Source: Escherichia phage A221
DNA: 64,000 bases
Direction: 5' to 3' (one strand)
Sequence record: ON862890.1
A model generated the notes under the pieces. It was not told the origin of the DNA. It worked only from the letters and a program-made list of their open reading frames with translations, and searched no databases. Of the stretch, positions 2,242-56,043 are shown one piece after another; within the stretch, counting starts at the first letter, position 1, and each line of letters begins with the position of its first letter. The position numbers were made by a program, and so were the translations under genes.

Positions 2242-3008
2242 TCCCTAAATACCCCCATCATCCATGGGGGTATTTTCTTATGAACGCACAGATCTATGAC
2301 GCCCTATCACAGGGCAACGCCTTTACCAATCCTCTCCCGTCCCTCAGCAGCGCCTCACAGGGGTTAATCACCAGTGGTAAGGCGACTACAGCGTCACTGG
2401 CTAACACCGGAAATGCGCAGATTCAGGAAGCGCTGACGGCAGGTGGGTTGACTACAGCCAAACTCAACGAATCTACAGCAATGTTCAACTCAGCCAACAA
2501 CAGCATCACTACTTTGAACAACTATGGCGACCAGTCAGTGAAAGAGGCATATTCCCGCATCGGTACATCTGTGTCGTATAAGTCCGCCCTGAAGTCTATA
2601 GGTCGAGAACCGAACAACTGTGATCTGATCAATAATGCATTTGGGGTTATTCAGAACCTCGGCAAACAGTGGATCAACACCATGCAAAGTGTTCTCACAA
2701 CTATCACAAACAAGATGAATGAGCTGGCTGAGTTGGTAGCTCAGGGCGTCGGTGCTGGTCTTGATGCTATTCAGGCACTGGCTGCTGAAGTTACTCAAGC
2801 CATCGACACCGCTGTCGCATCAGTAGCCTCTATTGCTCAGGACATCACGAACGGTATTGCAGCAGAGTTAGCCCATATCCAAGACATGGTTGGTAAGTGT
2901 CTTAACTTCTCTTTTGCCAACGTGATCTCAGAGTGGGCGAAAGATATCTGCGCCGGAGGTGTCATCAACAGCATTGGTTCCGATAATCTGAAGAACGCAC
3001 TGAAGTAA
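2238..3008 (+). CDS. hypothetical protein (256 aa, Ala/Ser/Thr/Asn-rich)
   Basis: ORF track; translationally coupled to upstream small ORF. Confidence 0.45.
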   Translation: MIPKYPHHPWGYFLMNAQIYDALSQGNAFTNPLPSLSSASQGLITSGKATTASLANTGNAQIQEALTAGGLTTAKLNESTAMFNSANNSITTLNNYGDQSVKEAYSRIGTSVSYKSALKSIGREPNNCDLINNAFGVIQNLGKQWINTMQSVLTTITNKMNELAELVAQGVGAGLDAIQALAAEVTQAIDTAVASVASIAQDITNGIAAELAHIQDMVGKCLNFSFANVISEWAKDICAGGVINSIGSDNLKNALK

Positions 3009-4698: not shown

Positions 4699-5445
4699 AT
4701 GGCATCTCTCCAGGATCTACGCAAGCTGAATGACTTCGAAAACCGTCATTACACATTTCAGCAATACGAACTTCCTCATAAGGAACTGGAGTGTGTTACG
4801 ACGGAGAATGGTCGTCATTACGTTTCACCGTCTGGTGTAAAACTGACATCCGTCACGACTATGCTGGGGCGCACTGGAGATCATGAATGGCTTGAGTCTT
4901 GGAGGAAGAAGCTGGGCGCAGAGGCCGCTGACCTTGAGACCATGCGCTGTGCTGACCGAGGGGAGAAGCTGCACCTTGCGTGTGAACTGTATCTAAAGAA
5001 CCGCCCAATGAAAGAAGTGTTGGAAGCGGCTGGCGAATACATGTTCATGTTCAAGCAGCTGTTCCCTTACCTGAACAAGATGACAAAGATCTATGCTCAG
5101 GAGATCCCATTATATAGTGAGGTGCTTGGTCTTGCAGGTCGTGTAGACCTTATCGGGGTTTATGAGGGTAAACCTGCTGTCATCGACTTCAAGACATCGA
5201 ACACCATGAAGACGCGGGGCATGATCGAGGATTACAGTATCCAGCTGTGCTTATATTCGGTCATGTTCCAGCAGATGTTCGGCGTCAAGATCACCCGCCT
5301 CATCAACGTGATTGCCAACGAGTCTTCCCCTCTACCAACCGTCATTGAGTTCAACCGTGATGACATTCTGACAAAGATGTTTGAGCGTGTTCGTCTGTAT
5401 CATCGCATGGATAAAGAACAAAACGGAGTCTGGCCGGATCACTAA
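4699..5445 (+). CDS. PD-(D/E)xK-type nuclease (RecB/Cas4-like fold)
   Basis: GAGGA RBS; motif GRVDLIG...VIDFKTS resembles D...(I/V)DxK nuclease core. Confidence 0.5.
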   Translation: MASLQDLRKLNDFENRHYTFQQYELPHKELECVTTENGRHYVSPSGVKLTSVTTMLGRTGDHEWLESWRKKLGAEAADLETMRCADRGEKLHLACELYLKNRPMKEVLEAAGEYMFMFKQLFPYLNKMTKIYAQEIPLYSEVLGLAGRVDLIGVYEGKPAVIDFKTSNTMKTRGMIEDYSIQLCLYSVMFQQMFGVKITRLINVIANESSPLPTVIEFNRDDILTKMFERVRLYHRMDKEQNGVWPDH

Positions 5446-5473
5446 ATACCCCATAATCCTTGGGAGATTTTGT

Positions 5474-33317: not shown

Positions 33318-33351
33318 AAGGGCACTAAATACCACGTGCCCTTTATCTTTT
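33318..33351 (+). terminator. rho-independent terminator
   Basis: Stem AAGGGCAC/GTGCCCTT followed by TATCTTTT. Confidence 0.55.
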
Positions 33352-38600: not shown

Positions 38601-38632
38601 ATCCCCCTAAATACAGGGGGATTTCTTTTTCT
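38601..38632 (+). terminator. rho-independent terminator
   Basis: Stem ATCCCCCT/AGGGGGAT followed by TTCTTTTTCT. Confidence 0.7.
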
Positions 38633-41189: not shown

Positions 41190-41338
41190 TCCATACGTGT
41201 AACATAGGGGAGGCAACTCCCCCTATCAGGTCTTGGGAGGAGATCACAGTCATTCAATCCTCTTTAGGCGCTCTCTGGGTTGCTGACACATTCAGAACAA
41301 AGTCTCCCCCAGCTCCTCGAGTAGTTCACTTTCACTTT

Positions 41339-41369
41339 AAATACCTCTGCATTCATTGTGGAGGTATTT
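41339..41369 (+). promoter_or_regulatory. hairpin sequestering the endolysin Shine-Dalgarno
   Basis: 9-bp stem AAATACCTC/GAGGTATTT; GGAGG at 41360-41364 lies largely in the 3' arm. Confidence 0.45.
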
Positions 41370-41373
41370 TCTT

Positions 41374-43113: not shown

Positions 43114-43196
43114 GTAACTCGCCAACCCTCCCCGCCGCCTTCAATCTACGAGGGCGGCGTATAATAAAACCTGCGTAAACAAACCCGAGGAACACC

Positions 43197-50383: not shown

Positions 50384-51190
50384 TTAAATGAAAATTTCAT
50401 TAATACTATTGAATTCGATTTTGTGCTCCTTACCACATTTCGGACACTTGATCGAACTCTTGTAGTGGATGCGCGGTATTTTGTGGAAGAAGTTCTTCGT
50501 AATGCTGTCAATAACATCTGATTCGATGTTATCCTTCACCCATTCAACAAACGCTTCTTTCACACGGCGGCGCTCAGTAGCCTCTTCCGGAGTGATTCCG
50601 ATTTCTTCAGGATTCTCAACCTTCCACACCTGACCGTCATCATCGTACAGACAGTCGATAAAGGTGGCCAGCATCATCTCAACGCTTGCAGCATCAGACA
50701 GTGCCGTAGCGTCCGAGAAGGAAGGTTGGCGCATCTTGAGGTGATATCCACCTGGCAGGTCAAACGTCTCCCGGAAGCCGTCCTGAGCAATGCATTTGAC
50801 GTTGTTCAACGGGATAGGTAGAGTCAGTTCCTGCTCACAGGGAACCATCTGGTGCTTTTCTTGACCATCTCCCAGATCGATCATTTCTTCAATCTGATTA
50901 TTGCACTTATAACGAATCTTCATCAATTCACCGATGGAGATCATGCGCATGCGGATGAACACTTCCTCAACAACGCCGATTGGCAGTTTACTGAAAGGTG
51001 CGCCTGCATTTACACACTCGCTAAAGAGACTCTCCATCATGGCCGCGCGTTCTTCAATCGGCGTTTGCGGATCTGACACCTGAAGTAATAAAGTTTGTTG
51101 CCCCGCAGTAAAGGCGCGATATTTGATCACAGTAGGCCAAAAGTCGCTTTTATATGTCTTTTCTGTTCTGGGCAATGATGGTAAATTCAT
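50384..51190 (-). CDS. hypothetical protein (268 aa) with C-terminal zinc ribbon, possibly baseplate-associated
   Basis: Start at internal Met with GGAGAT RBS; C-terminal CPKCGKEH; context only. Confidence 0.45.
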   Translation of the reverse strand: MNLPSLPRTEKTYKSDFWPTVIKYRAFTAGQQTLLLQVSDPQTPIEERAAMMESLFSECVNAGAPFSKLPIGVVEEVFIRMRMISIGELMKIRYKCNNQIEEMIDLGDGQEKHQMVPCEQELTLPIPLNNVKCIAQDGFRETFDLPGGYHLKMRQPSFSDATALSDAASVEMMLATFIDCLYDDDGQVWKVENPEEIGITPEEATERRRVKEAFVEWVKDNIESDVIDSITKNFFHKIPRIHYKSSIKCPKCGKEHKIEFNSINEIFI

Positions 51191-51239
51191 AATGTATCTC
51201 CACGGTATATTGTAAGAGTAATTATAACGAGGAATGAAA

Positions 51240-51764
51240 ATGCGCGGATTTTGTTTTAGTGAAATAGGCAAAGAACTGTCTATACAATATCCCGATCCCA
51301 ACACAGACTTCTTTATCTTCCTGACCGATTATGCCAAGAAAGAGAATATCCTCCATGTGGCAATGAAACACGAAGATTATAAGTTCTGCCGGCTGGGTGT
51401 CAAAGACCTGCTGCGTTATGGTCTACAAGTGGTCATCGTAGACCCATACTACAGCCCTATCGACGATGAAGAAGTTCTGCCCGTATATGTTCACCGCAAC
51501 ATCAATACATTGGAAAAGCATTATCCAGATTGTATTGTCATCGGCGAACTCATCTCGTATTATCATCGTGTGCGAAAGCTGGAACAGATTAAAAGTTATT
51601 TTCAAGAGGGTGTTGGTCAATATAAGATGAATGCCCTTAGTAGTGGATGGATGGTGCTGTCTTCAGCAGGCAGTGCTGACTATATTAAGATGCGTGTCTA
51701 CCAATACGTTGTGGAGCGCGATTATGAACTGGAGAAAAGTAATGCAAAACGAAAAACCCGTTGA
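51240..51764 (+). CDS. hypothetical protein (174 aa)
   Basis: Second ATG chosen for 6-nt spacing from GAGGA. Confidence 0.45.
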   Translation: MRGFCFSEIGKELSIQYPDPNTDFFIFLTDYAKKENILHVAMKHEDYKFCRLGVKDLLRYGLQVVIVDPYYSPIDDEEVLPVYVHRNINTLEKHYPDCIVIGELISYYHRVRKLEQIKSYFQEGVGQYKMNALSSGWMVLSSAGSADYIKMRVYQYVVERDYELEKSNAKRKTR

Positions 51765-52233
51765 ACGTGCTCCGATTGAGGAAGTACAACAACACGTCCT
51801 GGACCTTATGAAACACACAGTTTCTGATGCCGAAGGTAAAGTGCCGGATGAGTTCATCGGTGCGTTCGATCAGGTGGCTTTCGATACCGAGGGAGTTCCT
51901 TTGATCCAGACGATCGCTGGTATGGTTTTGTTTGAACCGAAAGCAGTAGAAAATGGCGTAATCGTCTACTCAGCCAACATTGGTGTGGACGGTGAGTCCC
52001 TGTCTCTCGAAGTTAGCAACATTGCTAAGTACCTGATCAAGTGTGGTTATGATCTGCAGGTTGTGACAGCCCACTATATCGATCCTCAGGGGCAGATCTC
52101 CTACGGTGATGAAGCGCGCAAAGTGAAACGCCACATCGACACTACCGTGATCCTGCAGAGTATCCAACAGATGCAGAAGAACCTGGACCACCCTGGTCTG
52201 ATCCTGCCTGACAGCAAAATCATCACTCGTTAA
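51742..52233 (+). CDS. hypothetical protein (163 aa)
   Basis: Internal ATG with GGAGAAAAG RBS. Confidence 0.45.
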   Translation: MQNEKPVERAPIEEVQQHVLDLMKHTVSDAEGKVPDEFIGAFDQVAFDTEGVPLIQTIAGMVLFEPKAVENGVIVYSANIGVDGESLSLEVSNIAKYLIKCGYDLQVVTAHYIDPQGQISYGDEARKVKRHIDTTVILQSIQQMQKNLDHPGLILPDSKIITR

Positions 52234-52239
52234 CCCAGC

Positions 52240-52284
52240 GTAAATAGCCCATACACCAATGAAACTTTGTTATGGGCTATTTAC
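52240..52284. other. perfect 14-bp inverted repeat GTAAATAGCCCATA/TATGGGCTATTTAC with 17-nt spacer
   Basis: Right arm ends 1 nt before ATG 52285. Confidence 0.8.
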
Positions 52285-52875
52285 ATGAAATATTGCGGAA
52301 TCGACTACTCCTATGGTTGTCCATCCCTGTGCTTCTGGGATGATAAAGACCCTCTTGATTTTGATCATCTGCGCTTCTACGCATATTATACTGTGGAGAA
52401 GTACTGCACTCAGATTCGTCAGAACATCCTTATCATGAAGCAACCGAAGTGGGAGACCCCAGAAGAACGCTTCTATAACATCTGTAAATGGGCTGAGGCT
52501 GTCCTGTTGACTGAGAAGCCGGATGCGATCACTCTTGAAGGGTATGCTATGGGCAACTCTAAGAACTCCAACAACATATGCCAGACCGCAGAGAACACCT
52601 CACTGTTGAAGCAAGCCCTGCGCCGTAACAATTTCGACTTCCAGATCGTGACGCCATCCCATGTGAAGAAGATGTTCACCGACAAGGGCAACGCCGATAA
52701 ACACGCCATGATCGCTCACTTCGAGTCACTGTTCAATGTTAGCATGCGCGGTATAATGGATATGTTGGAAGTTAAGGATCCTAAGCCAATCGATGACCTC
52801 GTGGATTCGTTTGCAATAATGGCTTGTGGCTCTTACTTCATTGAGAATAATCCAGACTTCAACAGAGGTGTATAA
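52285..52875 (+). CDS. possible RuvC-like Holliday-junction resolvase
   Basis: N-terminal MKYCGIDYSYG, later TLEGYAMGNS and DSFAIMACGS resemble RuvC-fold acidic motifs; weak. Confidence 0.4.
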   Translation: MKYCGIDYSYGCPSLCFWDDKDPLDFDHLRFYAYYTVEKYCTQIRQNILIMKQPKWETPEERFYNICKWAEAVLLTEKPDAITLEGYAMGNSKNSNNICQTAENTSLLKQALRRNNFDFQIVTPSHVKKMFTDKGNADKHAMIAHFESLFNVSMRGIMDMLEVKDPKPIDDLVDSFAIMACGSYFIENNPDFNRGV

Positions 52876-53186
52876 TGGTCGATTACTGGTTGTTGGCGAA
52901 CTTCCTGACGTTCGCTTTGTTGTTAGTGGTTGTCTTGGTCTGGGTGAAGTCGTTCTTCACTCTGGTTCATGCGTATGTGTACCAGATCAACTTCTACACA
53001 CTGTCCCCACATCGTGACACGAACGTTCGTGCCGATCAACAGGCCGAGGCTATCCTCTCATATCAGTTCATCCACATGCGCGATAAAATGATCAAGCGTG
53101 TAGTGTTTTCTACAGTGATGTTGCTGGTTATCATTATGGTACGTTTCGTGCTGACAACCGTGGGGGTGTTCCATGCCGCTGTATGA
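52875..53186 (+). CDS. membrane protein (103 aa)
   Basis: Hydrophobic N-terminal and C-terminal helices. Confidence 0.45.
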   Translation: MVDYWLLANFLTFALLLVVVLVWVKSFFTLVHAYVYQINFYTLSPHRDTNVRADQQAEAILSYQFIHMRDKMIKRVVFSTVMLLVIIMVRFVLTTVGVFHAAV

Positions 53187-53418
53187 TTATCAATGCAAGG
53201 GCTGTGGTAACGCGATGACACTGCGTAAATCTATTGCAGATCGCCACGAGCCTGAATCCAACCCCTGTACTGAGTGCGGAGGGGAGATTAAAATGATCGT
53301 GGGTGCTCCCAAGATTGTCTCTGGGGTGAAGGGACCGCAATCAGCTCCAGACGGCTTCAAGGACGTCTTGCGTACGATAAAGAAGGGTTCGGGTAAGGGG
53401 AACACAATCGATGTCTGA
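53173..53418 (+). CDS. zinc-ribbon protein (FmdB-like)
   Basis: MPLYDYQCKGCG...CTECGG. Confidence 0.5.
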   Translation: MPLYDYQCKGCGNAMTLRKSIADRHEPESNPCTECGGEIKMIVGAPKIVSGVKGPQSAPDGFKDVLRTIKKGSGKGNTIDV

Positions 53419-53656
53419 CGAAAAACAGCCAGCGCTTGTGATGACACCAGAATTATTTTCTGAAATCGTCCTACTACGCGCTGCCCAAACCAAGGATAGT
53501 ATCCTTGAGACTCTGGCAGCTGTCTGTGAAGAGAACGACATAGACGAGACCAAAGTCAAAAAGATGATTACAGCACCATTGTTGTCACGACTGACAGCTG
53601 AGTGCTCCGATGCGCGCCTGATCAAAGACGCGCTAAAGTCCAAGAAATTAGTGTAG
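53411..53656 (+). CDS. hypothetical protein (81 aa)
   Basis: ORF track. Confidence 0.4.
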   Translation: MSDEKQPALVMTPELFSEIVLLRAAQTKDSILETLAAVCEENDIDETKVKKMITAPLLSRLTAECSDARLIKDALKSKKLV

Positions 53657-53663
53657 GTCTATT

Positions 53664-53903
53664 ATGAGCAAAGAATCAATTTACAGCGCAATGAAAGCCT
53701 CCGAGTTCCTTCCTGGCTCTATGCGCTGGCGTGTGGGTAGCCTGAACGAGCATGCCGACCAGACGGATCGTATTCGTTACGTTACCCCTGATGGTCGCTC
53801 ATATGTCGTTGAGTATCACACGCACGACGAAGGCAAGAAGACGTTTTCGGACGTGTTCGACATTATTGAAATTGACCCAGCAAATCAAGTGCTTAAAGGT
53901 TAA
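53664..53903 (+). CDS. hypothetical protein (79 aa)
   Basis: ORF track. Confidence 0.4.
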   Translation: MSKESIYSAMKASEFLPGSMRWRVGSLNEHADQTDRIRYVTPDGRSYVVEYHTHDEGKKTFSDVFDIIEIDPANQVLKG

Positions 53904-54002
53904 TTCAATGTAAGATCGGGGTATAATTACCCCGCTTTGTAGCAAACTGAAAATACATGTAACAGAATAGCCCTGAGGGGCGGAAACAGAGGAAATTAAG
54001 AA

Positions 54003-55990: not shown

Positions 55991-56024
55991 GGTGAGGACT
56001 CCACTTAAATAAAATAACTGTTAT

Positions 56025-56032
56025 TATTTATA
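56025..56032 (-). promoter_or_regulatory. T4-type late promoter core TATAAATA
   Basis: Exact octamer on minus strand upstream of minus gene 55046-55990. Confidence 0.45.
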
Positions 56033-56043
56033 GGAGTTGACAA

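What the first reader, a model, noticed from the sequence alone, without database searches (positions are those of the whole stretch)
52240..52284. Perfect 14-bp inverted repeat abutting the start codon of a putative RuvC-like resolvase gene
GTAAATAGCCCATA ... TATGGGCTATTTAC with a 17-nt spacer ends 1 nt before ATG 52285, and no Shine-Dalgarno is evident. A palindrome of this length is unlikely by chance and could be an operator, an RNase III site or a translational control stem-loop.
Basis: seen in the sequence. Interest (0 to 1): 0.45.

Follow-up and report, generated by a model that had tools for sequence, protein, structure and literature searches.

The report
Late-promoter hairpin silencing a phage resolvase
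The palindrome is real and conserved: it is most likely a phage "late-only" switch, a late promoter built into one arm of an RNA hairpin that hides the start of a DNA-cutting resolvase gene on earlier transcripts, the same trick phage T4 uses for its own unrelated resolvase.

Summary
The 14-bp perfect inverted repeat (52240-52253 / 52271-52284, 17-nt spacer, abutting ATG 52285) is exactly as described. It is non-random: 3 of 200 simulated windows hold such a repeat, and the RNA hairpin is -21 kcal/mol (z = -6.2). The window is an Ackermannviridae (Agtrevirus-like) phage.

The hairpin is kept in every Enterobacterales-infecting lineage examined. Compensatory changes preserve the stem while the loop varies from 6 to about 21 nt.

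The 5' arm carries an invariant TAAATA box. This is the T4-type late-promoter core and part of the published family motif CTAAATAcCcc. By the T4 rule, late RNA would start at about 52252-52253 and lack the 5' arm. The hairpin could then form only on read-through RNA, where it buries the weak SD-like GGG and abuts the AUG.

The same architecture precedes the endolysin, UvsW helicase and DUF7217 genes. The T4-type gene 49 (endonuclease VII) leader has nearly the same arms.

A conserved early-type promoter inside the resolvase gene feeds gp33 and gp32 without expressing the resolvase.

Verdict: a new member of a known regulatory kind. No transcript 5' ends or translation data exist, so promoter use and repression are inferred. 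Interest is moderate.

The parts
52240..52253 (+). 5' arm of the hairpin. It contains the late-promoter-like box and a C-rich stretch (GCCC) that pairs with the SD-like GGGC.
   Evidence: Perfect complement of 52271-52284. Conserved with compensatory changes in at least 16 distinct orthologous sequences.
52241..52246 (+). TAAATA box, the core of the T4-type late promoter TATAAATA. The extended form GTAAATAGCCC (52240-52250) matches the published family motif CTAAATAcCcc at 9 of 11 positions.
   Evidence: Invariant on the + strand in 11/11 distinct orthologues but in only 5/11 on the - strand. It is a perfect TATAAATA in Erwinia phiEa2809. It is annotated 'putative late promoter' in the LIMEstone1 record. 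The motif is quoted in PMC7283392. The same box lies just upstream of the gp5, tail-tube, gp2 and endolysin genes.
52252..52253 (+). Predicted 5' end of the late transcript. This is inferred, not mapped.
   Evidence: T4 late promoters place the 8-bp TATA box about one helical turn upstream of the start (PMC2988020), which is 6-7 nt after the box. RNA starting here folds at only -0.9 to -1.9 kcal/mol locally.
52254..52270 (+). Loop of 17 nt, with a possible 3-bp inner stem (52257-59 with 52267-69).
   Evidence: Loop sequence and length vary freely among relatives, from 6 to about 21 nt.
52271..52284 (+). 3' arm. It carries the only SD-like element (GGG 52274-52276) and ends 0 nt before the start codon.
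   Evidence: Annotators of phages Maynard and Magnus marked the orthologous GG(G)T as the ribosome-binding site.
52285..52875 (+). RuvC-like Holliday junction resolvase gene (196 aa).
   Evidence: PHROG 159 E 1.7e-53. Pfam RuvC 23.2 bits against a cutoff of 22.2. AF2 pLDDT 88.9, with Foldseek top hits all RuvC-family resolvases. Invariant D7, E60, D171 and D174 in 26 homologues.
51742..52233 (+). Upstream gene (PHROG 3801, unknown function). Its transcripts would read into the hairpin. It overlaps the ORF58-like gene 51234-51764.
   Evidence: There is no other terminator-like site between its stop codon and ATG 52285.
52732..52757 (+). Perfect TTCAAT-N14-TATAAT, the family's early-type promoter motif, embedded in the 3' part of the resolvase gene and facing the membrane protein, FmdB-like, gp33, hypothetical and gp32 genes.
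   Evidence: One of only two perfect matches in the window. The other lies 32 nt before nrdA. TATAAT is invariant in 13 relatives, including the rare ATA codon and the third-base T of GGT/GCT.
53411..53656 (+). gp33-type late-transcription co-activator. It shows that the phage has T4-type late transcription.
   Evidence: PHROG 254 E 2.8e-20. PF16805 Trans_coact is recorded on orthologues.
2245..2279 (+). Paralogous box-hairpin (CTAAATACCCCCAT / ATGGGGGTATTT) 4 nt before ATG 2280 of a DUF7217 gene.
   Evidence: Conserved in relatives. Hit by model R1 at 22.9 bits. It is the second most occluded start in the window.
41337..41373 (+). Paralogous box-hairpin (TTAAATACCTCTGC / GTGGAGGTATTT) that buries a strong GGAGG, 4 nt before ATG 41374 of the endolysin gene.
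   Evidence: Conserved with compensatory changes.
5441..5473 (+). Weaker box-hairpin (CTAAATACCCC ... GGGAGATTT) before ATG 5474 of a UvsW-type helicase gene.
   Evidence: Conserved, and stronger in Kuttervirus at -20 kcal/mol.

Best explanation
The repeat is a temporal insulator for the resolvase gene. It combines a T4-type late promoter with an RNA hairpin.

On DNA, the 5' arm carries the late-promoter box TAAATA. This box would be recognised by the gp55/gp33/gp45-type late machinery that this phage family encodes.

On any RNA that starts upstream (read-through from the ORF58/57-like unit), both arms are transcribed. They fold into a -21 kcal/mol stem. The stem buries the only SD-like element and abuts the AUG, so ribosomes cannot start. 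Some transcripts may also stop there.

Late in infection, transcription starts about 6-7 nt after the box, at roughly 52252-52253. That RNA lacks the 5' arm and cannot form the stem, so it is translated, weakly because the SD is poor.

The downstream genes that are needed earlier (gp33, gp32) are served by a separate early-type promoter embedded in the 3' end of the resolvase gene. The resolvase is therefore the one gene of the cluster restricted to late expression.

Shown here: the structure, its conservation and covariation, the box and its strand asymmetry, the recurrence of the design, the protein fold, and the near-identity to the T4 gene 49 leader. Inferred: use of the promoter, the position of the late 5' end, the existence and timing of read-through RNA, and the repression itself.
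For: 1. Structure. The stem is 14 bp and perfect, -21 kcal/mol, z = -6.2. It is the most occluded translation-initiation region of 81 crude gene starts (P unpaired 0.12).

2. Selection for pairing.
- Eleven distinct orthologues from 6 genera all fold at -15 to -21 kcal/mol with the box in the 5' arm. Five more metagenomic lineages do the same.
- Compensatory events: a G:C pair insertion in Agtrevirus; A-U to U-A (L017, L069); A-U to G-C (Serratia, Erwinia, L071, L073, L074); C-G to G-C or U-A at the inner end.
- The formal count gives 83% of cells paired against 30-52% in slid controls.
- In the same count the covariation score is 0.097 against 0.058 in shuffles (3 of 500 reach it) and at most 0.032 in slid controls.
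- The count is conservative, because the Agtrevirus rows are mis-registered in that alignment.

3. Promoter identity.
- TAAATA is invariant on the + strand only.
- It is a perfect TATAAATA in phiEa2809.
- It matches the published motif CTAAATAcCcc.
- It is annotated as a late promoter in LIMEstone1.
- gp33 is present, and gp55, gp33 and gp45 are reported for Ag3 (PMC3121705).
- The box precedes virion and lysis genes, whereas the TTCAAT-N14-TATAAT motif precedes nrdA.

4. Switch geometry. RNA starting 6 nt after the box folds at 0 to -3.9 kcal/mol in every lineage.

5. Recurrence. The same design sits in front of the endolysin, UvsW and DUF7217 genes and is conserved across genera. In T4, e (lysozyme), gene 49 and uvsW are the corresponding late or hairpin-regulated genes (PMC3014915; PMC2988022; PMC3016281).

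6. Direct comparison. The T4-type gene 49 leader AATAAATACCCTTA...TAAGGGTATTTATT|ATG folds at -23.4 kcal/mol with the same geometry. The Ackermannviridae-only model hits it at 29.6 bits, E 1.3e-4.

7. Operon logic. A conserved early-type promoter lies inside the resolvase gene.
Against: - No transcript 5' ends, timing data or translation data exist for this phage family. The CBA120 paper stated that the late-promoter sequence was 'not yet identified' (PMC3184105).
- In the window the box is CGTAAATA, only 6 of 8 matches to the T4 consensus and 9 of 11 to the family motif.
- The promoter that would supply read-through RNA is uncertain. The best candidate is TTCATA-N14-TATATT at 51186-51211, with 3 mismatches, and it overlaps the divergent gp26 start.
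- The C-rich tail after the box also occurs at boxes with no hairpin, for example gp5. Part of the CCC:GGG pairing potential could therefore be a by-product of promoter composition.
- The late mRNA would still have a very weak SD, so how efficiently it is translated is unknown.
- The T-rich 3' arm means partial termination cannot be separated from translational occlusion in silico.
Confidence: 0.62

Rival explanations
1. The hairpin is primarily an intrinsic terminator, or a 3'-end-stabilising hairpin, for the upstream ORF58/57-like unit. It merely overlaps a late promoter, so the resolvase is kept off early by termination and not by translational occlusion.
For: The 3' arm and its continuation are U-rich, for example UAUUUUUAU in Kuttervirus. 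Elsewhere in the window, TAAATA boxes sit in the loops of clear terminator-like hairpins followed by T-runs, at 38603-38620 and 33320-33341. The 2246 and 41338 hairpins are followed by TATTTTCTT. Pairing of an A-tract with a U-tract is typical of terminators (established knowledge).
Against: In the window the tail after the stem is AUGAAAUAUU, and the core-stem tail is UAUUUACAU. Only 4 of the 14 pairs are G-C. Loops of 13-21 nt in most lineages are atypical for intrinsic terminators. The consensus scan calls no terminator here or at the orthologues in Serratia and Kuttervirus. That scan absorbs the T-run into the stem, so this is weak evidence. The 3' arm ends 0-6 nt from the AUG in every lineage, and in Serratia 2050H1 the fold includes the AUG itself. 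Termination does not require that, but occlusion does. This reading is not exclusive with the best explanation.
Confidence: 0.2
2. The repeat is a palindromic DNA operator for a dimeric regulator, for example the FmdB-like zinc-ribbon protein encoded downstream, or an autoregulatory binding site or cruciform for the resolvase itself.
For: It is a perfect palindrome overlapping a promoter. T4 I-TevI autorepresses through an operator that overlaps its late promoter (PMC2988022). A resolvase binds branched or cruciform DNA (established knowledge).
Against: Half-site spacing varies from 6 to about 21 nt. The arms change sequence between lineages and only pairing is kept. Symmetry is broken at the box, with 11/11 on the + strand against 5/11 on the - strand. 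Different arm sequences with the same geometry precede three unrelated genes. Loops of 13-21 nt disfavour cruciform extrusion (established knowledge).
Confidence: 0.04
3. The hairpin is an RNase III (or other endonuclease) processing site that separates the upstream mRNA from the resolvase mRNA.
For: It is a stable intercistronic stem-loop in a polycistronic phage transcript.
Against: Stems are only 11-15 bp, shorter than typical RNase III substrates of about 20 bp (established knowledge). There is no Rfam match. This reading does not explain the invariant, strand-specific TAAATA box.
Confidence: 0.03
4. It is a chance palindrome with no function.
For: AT-rich intergenic DNA produces short inverted repeats.
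Against: 3 of 200 simulated windows hold such a repeat. z = -6.2. It is conserved with compensatory changes across at least 6 genera.
Confidence: 0.01

Closest known systems
Phage T4 gene 49 (endonuclease VII) leader: a late promoter inside a hairpin that sequesters the translation start on long pre-late transcripts (Barth et al. 1988, Genetics 120:329, cited from memory and from the reference list; gene 49 is listed with e, soc and I-TevI in PMC3014915)
   Same: - The regulated gene has the same function, a junction-resolving nuclease needed at packaging.
- The geometry is the same: the box is in the 5' arm, CCC pairs with GGG, a weak SD lies in the 3' arm, and the stem abuts the ATG.
- The arm sequences are nearly the same: AATAAATACCCTTA / TAAGGGTATTTATT in T4 against GTAAATAGCCCATA / TATGGGCTATTTAC here.
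- The stability is similar, at -23.4 against -21 kcal/mol.
- The Ackermannviridae-only covariance model hits the T4 leader at 29.6 bits.
   Different: - The phage family differs: Ackermannviridae against Straboviridae.
- The protein is non-homologous: a RuvC fold here against endonuclease VII.
- The genomic neighbourhood differs.
- The loop is 17 nt here against 5 nt in T4.
- T4 gene 49 also yields a shorter nested protein from an internal start (from memory). No such feature was examined here.
- The T4 case has been tested experimentally and this one has not.
T4 gene e (lysozyme), soc, and the I-TevI, I-TevII, I-TevIII, segB and mobE hairpins (PMC3014915 section 29; PMC2988022 section 12)
   Same: - The logic is the same: late genes sit on long polycistronic early or middle transcripts.
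- The ribosome-binding site is sequestered in a helix.
- The late promoter is placed so that late RNA lacks the 5' part of the helix.
- The endolysin gene in this window (41337-41373) mirrors T4 e directly.
   Different: - Those elements usually bury a strong SD. Here the SD is nearly absent and the stem abuts the AUG.
- The T4 e leader scores only 12.9 bits with the model.
Published Ackermannviridae ('Viunalikevirus') regulatory motifs CTAAATAcCcc and TTCAAT[N14]TATAAT (quoted in PMC7283392; LIMEstone1 record HE600015 annotates TAAATA here as a putative late promoter)
   Same: - The 5' arm matches the first motif at 9 of 11 positions in the window and 10 of 11 in Kuttervirus.
- The second motif occurs perfectly inside the resolvase gene.
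   Different: - None of the papers that could be read mentions that the motif forms the 5' arm of a conserved hairpin occluding the downstream start.
- None mentions that the C-rich tail pairs with the SD.
- The original genus paper (Adriaenssens et al. 2012) was not available to check.

Membership tests
T4-type 'late promoter inside a start-occluding hairpin' (e / soc / 49 / I-TevI class) | The phage uses gp55/gp33/gp45-type late transcription. | tested here: met
   The gp33 homologue is at 53411-53656 (PHROG 254, E 2.8e-20). gp55, gp33 and gp45 homologues are reported for the 94%-identical phage Ag3 (PMC3121705). gp55 and gp45 were not looked for in this window.
T4-type 'late promoter inside a start-occluding hairpin' (e / soc / 49 / I-TevI class) | A late-promoter box (TATAAATA-like) lies within the 5' part of the helix. 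| tested here: met
   TAAATA is at 52241-52246 in the 5' arm. It is invariant in all hairpin-bearing orthologues and is a perfect TATAAATA in phiEa2809. In the window it matches only 6 of 8 positions of the T4 consensus.
T4-type 'late promoter inside a start-occluding hairpin' (e / soc / 49 / I-TevI class) | A stable helix sequesters the SD and/or AUG on longer transcripts. | tested here: met
   The stem is -21 kcal/mol. P(unpaired) over -14..+3 is 0.12, rank 1 of 81 starts. The SD-like GGG lies in the 3' arm and the stem ends at -1.
T4-type 'late promoter inside a start-occluding hairpin' (e / soc / 49 / I-TevI class) | Late transcripts start inside the helix and cannot form it. | not testable with these tools
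   This is predicted only. A start 6-7 nt after the box gives RNA with a local dG of 0 to -3.9 kcal/mol in all lineages. No 5'-end data exist.
T4-type 'late promoter inside a start-occluding hairpin' (e / soc / 49 / I-TevI class) | The gene lies downstream of a pre-late transcription unit, so read-through RNA exists. | tested here: inconclusive
   The same-strand upstream genes end 51 nt before the ATG, with no other terminator-like site between. The candidate upstream promoter TTCATA-N14-TATATT is weak and overlaps the gp26 start.
T4-type 'late promoter inside a start-occluding hairpin' (e / soc / 49 / I-TevI class) | The helix is under selection, shown by covariation. | tested here: met
   4 pairs change on both sides, and the covariation score is 0.097 against at most 0.032 in slid controls. 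Register-correct inspection shows at least 5 stem positions with compensatory states, including a paired insertion.
Intrinsic (rho-independent) terminator | A G+C-rich stem, a short loop of 3-8 nt, and a U-run immediately 3' of the stem. | tested here: not met
   4 of 14 pairs are G-C, the loop is 17 nt, and the tail is AUGAAAUAUU. The consensus scan does not call it here or at the orthologues. The scan extends the stem into the T-run, so weak or partial termination is not excluded.
RuvC-family Holliday junction resolvase (downstream gene) | An RNase H-like RuvC fold with conserved acidic catalytic residues. | tested here: met
   AF2 pLDDT 88.9. The Foldseek PDB top 17 hits are all RuvC, MOC1 or Ydc2 (best E 9.7e-9, target-normalised TM 0.64-0.74). 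D7, E60, D171 and D174 are invariant in 26 homologues. Pfam RuvC scores 23.2 bits against a cutoff of 22.2. Enzymatic activity was not tested.
Palindromic operator | Symmetric half-sites at fixed spacing, conserved in sequence. | tested here: not met
   Spacing varies from 6 to about 21 nt. The arms vary while pairing is kept. The box is conserved on one strand only.
RNase III processing site | About two helical turns (roughly 20 bp) of dsRNA. | tested here: not met
   Stems are 11-15 bp in all lineages. The criterion comes from established knowledge, and cleavage was not tested.
Any curated Rfam family | A match reaching the family's gathering score. | tested here: not met
   The only hit in 51000-54000 is mir-2335 at 21.6 bits against a gathering score of 90 (E 0.7), and it lies elsewhere in the gene.

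The most novel reading that the evidence does not exclude
Enterobacterales-infecting Ackermannviridae use one modular cassette: a late-promoter box, a C-rich anti-SD, a loop, the SD, then the ATG. It gates a whole set of potentially harmful late enzymes (resolvase, endolysin, UvsW helicase, DUF7217). The 'cCcc' tail of the published late-promoter motif would then be partly an anti-SD and not a promoter element. The leader in front of the RuvC-fold resolvase is so close to the T4 gene 49 leader that either the regulatory leader is older than the split of the two families and the nuclease behind it was swapped (non-orthologous displacement behind a conserved leader), or two families converged on nearly the same sequence.
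Probability: 0.4. Interest if true: 0.5.

Novelty: new member of a known kind. Interest (0 to 1): 0.38.

Why it matters
- It explains an otherwise odd gene start, which has no usable Shine-Dalgarno and a stem abutting the AUG.
- It gives a testable model for how ViI-like phages, which are widely used for biocontrol and therapy, time a DNA-cutting enzyme and their endolysin.
- It extends a classic T4 regulatory device to a second phage family in which late promoters have never been mapped.
- It suggests the published CTAAATAcCcc motif has a dual role, as promoter and as anti-SD.
- It corrects inconsistent start-codon annotation of this gene in public records.
- Two unrelated resolvases (RuvC fold and endonuclease VII) sit behind nearly the same leader, which makes this a neat case for studying convergence against leader conservation.
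- For engineering, the cassette is a compact 'late-only' expression module.

Tried and rejected
- A search for further copies of the arm in the window found nothing beyond chance. It is not a dispersed repeat.
- The MAFFT alignment and the covariance-model alignment both mis-registered the Agtrevirus paired G:C insertion. The formal pair counts therefore understate pairing, and I added a per-sequence fold table.
- The metagenome scan with the protein alignment returned only 2 loci. More lineages came from the search for homologous proteins plus look-up of encoding contigs.
- The PDB sequence search gave no relative. The fold search was needed.
- Barth et al. 1988, Adriaenssens et al. 2012 and Nechaev & Geiduschek 2008 are not held. 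The exact T4 box-to-start distance and the details of gene 49 therefore rest on reviews and on memory.
- A search for Ackermannviridae transcriptomics found nothing relevant.
- Rfam gave no match.
- The terminator scan was uninformative, because it absorbs the T-run into the stem.
- I considered and rejected TTG 52267 and ATG 52272 as starts. They are out of frame or lack any SD, and the RuvC N-terminal strand with catalytic D7 begins at ATG 52285.
Full report
**1. The observation**

The sequence reads GTAAATAGCCCATA (52240-52253), a 17-nt spacer, then TATGGGCTATTTAC (52271-52284), followed at once by ATG 52285. The arms are perfectly complementary and cannot be extended outwards.

A perfect 14-bp inverted repeat with a 3-60 nt loop occurred in 3 of 200 simulated 64-kb windows with the same dinucleotide statistics. 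In the real window the only perfect repeats of 12 bp or more are this one and 2247-2275.

As RNA the element folds at -21 kcal/mol (z = -6.18, 0 of 200 shuffles as stable). As ssDNA it folds at -12.1 kcal/mol.

The arm is not repeated elsewhere beyond chance.

The claim that no Shine-Dalgarno is evident holds. The best SD:anti-SD duplex is -2.4 kcal/mol, against -6 to -10.6 for neighbouring genes. The only candidate, GGG 52274-76, lies inside the 3' arm.

**2. Context**

The window is an Ackermannviridae phage. It is 99% identical to Escherichia phage vB_EcoM-ZQ1 and 94% identical to Shigella phage Ag3 (Agtrevirus) over 2.5 kb.

The local gene order is as follows:
- gp5 baseplate hub (-) and gp26 (-).
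- On the + strand, two genes of unknown function (51234-51764 and 51742-52233).
- The hairpin.
- The gene 52285-52875.
- A small membrane protein, an FmdB-like zinc-ribbon protein, the gp33 late co-activator, a hypothetical gene and gp32, followed by a terminator.

The gene after the hairpin is a RuvC-fold protein:
- Pfam RuvC scores 23.2 bits against a cutoff of 22.2, and PHROG 159 gives E 1.7e-53.
- An AlphaFold model built on 26 homologues has pLDDT 88.9.
- Its 17 best Foldseek PDB matches are all RuvC-family junction resolvases.
- D7, E60, D171 and D174 are invariant.

ATG 52285 is the right start. The catalytic D7 strand begins there, and the alternative starts inside the 3' arm are out of frame in this genus.

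**3. Conservation and covariation**

I collected the leader from GenBank phages, IMG/VR and metagenome contigs.

Eleven distinct sequences from Agtrevirus, Limestonevirus, Kuttervirus, Taipeivirus, Miltonvirus and Nezavisimistyvirus all fold at -15 to -21 kcal/mol. In each the stem ends 0-6 nt before the AUG, or includes it. Five further metagenomic lineages, at 59-76% protein identity, do the same.

The loop varies freely in sequence and in length, from 6 to about 21 nt.

The stem changes in a compensated way:
- Agtrevirus has an extra G in the 5' arm matched by an extra C in the 3' arm, relative to Limestonevirus and Kuttervirus.
- L017 has A-U replaced by U-A.
- Serratia, Erwinia and three metagenomic lineages have CCCG/CGGG where the others have CCCA/UGGG.
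- L069 has CCCU/AGGG.
- The innermost pair occurs as C-G, G-C or U-A.

The formal count on a covariance-model alignment of 14 sequences gives these figures:
- 83% of cells are paired, against 30-52% when the partner is slid by 1-3 columns.
- 4 pairs change on both sides.
- 9 cells carry double changes, reached by 1 of 500 shuffles.
- The covariation score is 0.097, against 0.058 in shuffles (3 of 500) and at most 0.032 in slid controls.

This count is conservative. The alignment leaves the Agtrevirus insertion un-gapped and so scores those rows as unpaired at four positions.

The more distant relatives examined differ:
- Aeromonas phiA8-29, Vibrio K386 and Delftia W-14 have an ordinary strong SD (AAGGAG, AAAGGTGG, GAAGGAG). 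In the first two an upstream terminator-like hairpin is also present.
- Lineage L072 keeps a 13-bp stem abutting the ATG with quite different arms and a degenerate box.
- Lineage L076, at 43% identity, has a different hairpin that buries GGAGAAAC.

**4. The 5' arm is a late-promoter box**

- TAAATA (52241-46) is the core of the T4 late promoter TATAAATA.
- It is invariant in every hairpin-bearing orthologue, becomes ATAAATA in several lineages, and is a perfect TATAAATA in Erwinia phiEa2809.
- On the opposite strand the equivalent hexamer is kept in only 5 of 11 sequences. The first T of the box is invariant although its pairing partner is A, U or C. The box is therefore constrained on one strand for a reason other than pairing.
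- The depositors of LIMEstone1 annotated exactly this hexamer as a 'putative late promoter'.
- The extended sequence matches CTAAATAcCcc. This is one of two 'unique regulatory motifs' of this phage group, quoted in PMC7283392. The match is 9 of 11 in the window.
- Within the window, TAAATA boxes lie 23-38 nt upstream of the starts of gp5, a tail-tube protein, the gp2 DNA-end protector and the endolysin.
- The other family motif, TTCAAT-N14-TATAAT, occurs perfectly only twice. One copy lies just before nrdA, a typical pre-replicative gene.
- The phage family encodes gp55, gp33 and gp45 homologues (PMC3121705), and gp33 is in the window.
- No experimental mapping exists. In 2011 the late-promoter sequence of ViI-like phages was said to be 'not yet identified' (PMC3184105).

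**5. The switch**

T4 late promoters place the box about one helical turn upstream of the start (PMC2988020). Late RNA would then begin at about 52252-52253, after the 5' arm.

RNAs with 5' ends at 52251-52255 lose the hairpin. Mean P(unpaired) for 52272-52290 rises from 0.26 to 0.55. The same holds for all orthologues, where late-RNA dG is 0 to -3.9 kcal/mol.

On longer RNA, the resolvase start is the most occluded of 81 crude gene starts in the window (P unpaired 0.12).

The stem is under selection. A late transcript would not contain it. So some RNA (or single-stranded DNA) that contains both arms must matter. The natural source is read-through from the upstream same-strand genes, whose stop codon lies 51 nt before the ATG with no other terminator-like site between.

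The promoter class of that upstream unit is uncertain. The only candidate is a weak TTCATA-N14-TATATT that overlaps the divergent gp26 start.

**6. Operon logic**

A perfect TTCAAT-N14-TATAAT lies at 52732-52757, inside the resolvase gene and 118 nt before the next start codon.

Its TATAAT is invariant in 13 relatives from 6 genera. That conservation includes a rare ATA isoleucine codon. It also includes the third-base T of the preceding codon, which is kept even where glycine became alanine.

This would give gp33 and gp32 pre-late expression without transcribing the resolvase start. The resolvase is thus bracketed: a hairpin with a late promoter upstream, and an early-type promoter for the downstream genes inside its own 3' end.

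**7. Recurrence**

The same design precedes three other genes in the window:

| Position | Arms | Gene | Note |
|---|---|---|---|
| 2245-2279 | CTAAATACCCCCAT / ATGGGGGTATTT | DUF7217 | Second most occluded start |
| 41337-41373 | AAATACCTCTGC / GTGGAGGTATTT | Muramidase endolysin | Buries GGAGG |
| 5441-5473 | CTAAATACCCC ... GGGAGATTT | UvsW-type helicase | Weaker version here |

All three are conserved across genera. The endolysin stem shows compensated changes, and the Kuttervirus UvsW leader forms a stronger helix.

Model R1, built only from resolvase leaders, also picks up 2243-2288 (22.9 bits).

**8. Comparison with T4**

Reviews list T4 e, soc, 49 and I-TevI as genes whose SD and/or AUG are sequestered on long early or middle transcripts. 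A late promoter placed within the structure frees the site on late RNA (PMC3014915 section 29; PMC2988022 section 12).

T4 UvsW is expressed from a late promoter, and endonuclease VII acts at the packaging step (PMC3016281).

I fetched the T4-type leaders directly:
- Gene 49 reads AATAAATACCCTTA-tctatttaagg-TAAGGGTATTTATT|ATG and folds at -23.4 kcal/mol. The box is in the 5' arm, CCC pairs with GGG, the SD is weak, and the stem abuts the ATG. It is the same design as here with nearly the same arms.
- The Ackermannviridae-only model hits the gene 49 leader at the right place with 29.6 bits (E 1.3e-4 in 8.5 kb). That is more than it gives the window's own paralogous hairpin or the T4 e leader, which scores 12.9 bits.

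The two resolvases are unrelated in fold and the neighbourhoods differ. Shared ancestry of the leader and convergence under the same constraints (box + anti-SD + SD + AUG) cannot be told apart here.

**9. Rivals**

- Terminator or 3'-stabiliser. This is plausible as a secondary role. The 3' arm is U-rich, and elsewhere in the window TAAATA boxes sit in the loops of clear terminators. Here, however, the stem is A+U-rich, the loop is long and the tail is poor in U. The conserved abutment to the AUG is what occlusion needs, not what termination needs. The consensus scan calls no terminator, but that is weak evidence.
- Operator or cruciform. Variable spacing, arm turnover and strand asymmetry argue against it.
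- RNase III site. The stems are too short.
- Chance. Excluded by the comparative data.
- No Rfam family matches.

**10. Verdict**

The element is best described as the Ackermannviridae counterpart of the T4 gene 49 regulatory hairpin, and so as a new member of a known kind.

The structural and comparative parts are shown. Promoter use, the late 5' end, read-through and repression are inferred and need 5'-end mapping and reporter tests.

Confidence in the mechanism is about 0.6. Interest is moderate (0.38). The mechanism is textbook for T4. What adds interest is its conservation in a second family in front of a non-homologous resolvase, its recurrence before the endolysin and UvsW genes, and the likely dual role of the published promoter motif.

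Noticed in passing
window 52732-52757 (+): A perfect copy of the family's early-type promoter motif TTCAAT-N14-TATAAT is embedded in the 3' part of the RuvC-like gene and faces the genes for the membrane protein, FmdB-like protein, gp33 and gp32. TATAAT is invariant in 13 relatives, including a rare ATA codon and a third-base T kept across a Gly to Ala change.
   Followed up: yes
window 43140-43165 (+): This is the only other perfect TTCAAT-N14-TATAAT in the window. It lies 32 nt before the ATG (43197) of the ribonucleotide reductase large subunit, which is consistent with the motif being an early or host-type promoter.
   Followed up: partly
window 2245-2279, 5441-5473, 41337-41373 (+): Three more hairpins carry a TAAATA box in the 5' arm and bury the SD just before the starts of the DUF7217, UvsW-type helicase and muramidase endolysin genes. 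They are conserved across genera.
   Followed up: yes
window 38603-38620 and 33320-33341 (+): TAAATA boxes sit in the loops of terminator-like hairpins followed by T-runs (CCCCC-TAAATACA-GGGGG and GGGCAC-TAAATACCAC-GTGCCC). This suggests overlapping terminator and late-promoter modules.
   Followed up: no
window 51403-51376 (-): A perfect sigma-70 consensus (TTGACA, 16 nt, TATAAT, 12 of 12) lies on the minus strand inside the ORF58-like gene and points towards the gp26 baseplate gene.
   Followed up: no
window 52259-52288 (+): A 9-codon mini-ORF (ATG in the loop, TGA overlapping the resolvase start as ATGA) would be near the 5' end of the predicted late RNA. The frame is not kept in Limestonevirus or Kuttervirus, so it is probably not functional.
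   Followed up: partly
L001 2575 (LIMEstone1) and L075 301: Public gene calls start the resolvase 12 nt upstream, at the ATG inside the 3' arm. That ATG is out of frame in Agtrevirus because of the extra C, so annotation of this start is inconsistent between records.
   Followed up: partly
L077 211-259 (T4-type phage WilhelmHis, upstream of endonuclease VII): The gene 49 leader AATAAATACCCTTA...TAAGGGTATTTATT|ATG is nearly the same element as the one studied, although the nuclease behind it is unrelated. Model R1 scores it at 29.6 bits.
   Followed up: yes
window 56006-56035 (both strands): Divergent TAAATA boxes lie on opposite strands around a short palindrome, between the tail-tube gene (start 55990, -) and the gp2-like DNA-end protector gene (start 56044, +).
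   Followed up: no
L019 1-450 (Klebsiella phage Magnus); L020 1501-2295 (Serratia phage 2050H1): An HNH endonuclease gene is inserted upstream of the ORF58-like gene in Magnus. The Serratia Miltonvirus resolvase is annotated with a C-terminal extension of about 68 aa (264 aa against 196 aa).
   Followed up: no
L072 260-309 and L076 250-300: Two metagenomic lineages (71% and 43% protein identity) lack the TAAATA box. They still have a strong hairpin that ends 0-1 nt before the resolvase ATG, with unrelated arm sequences.
   Followed up: partly
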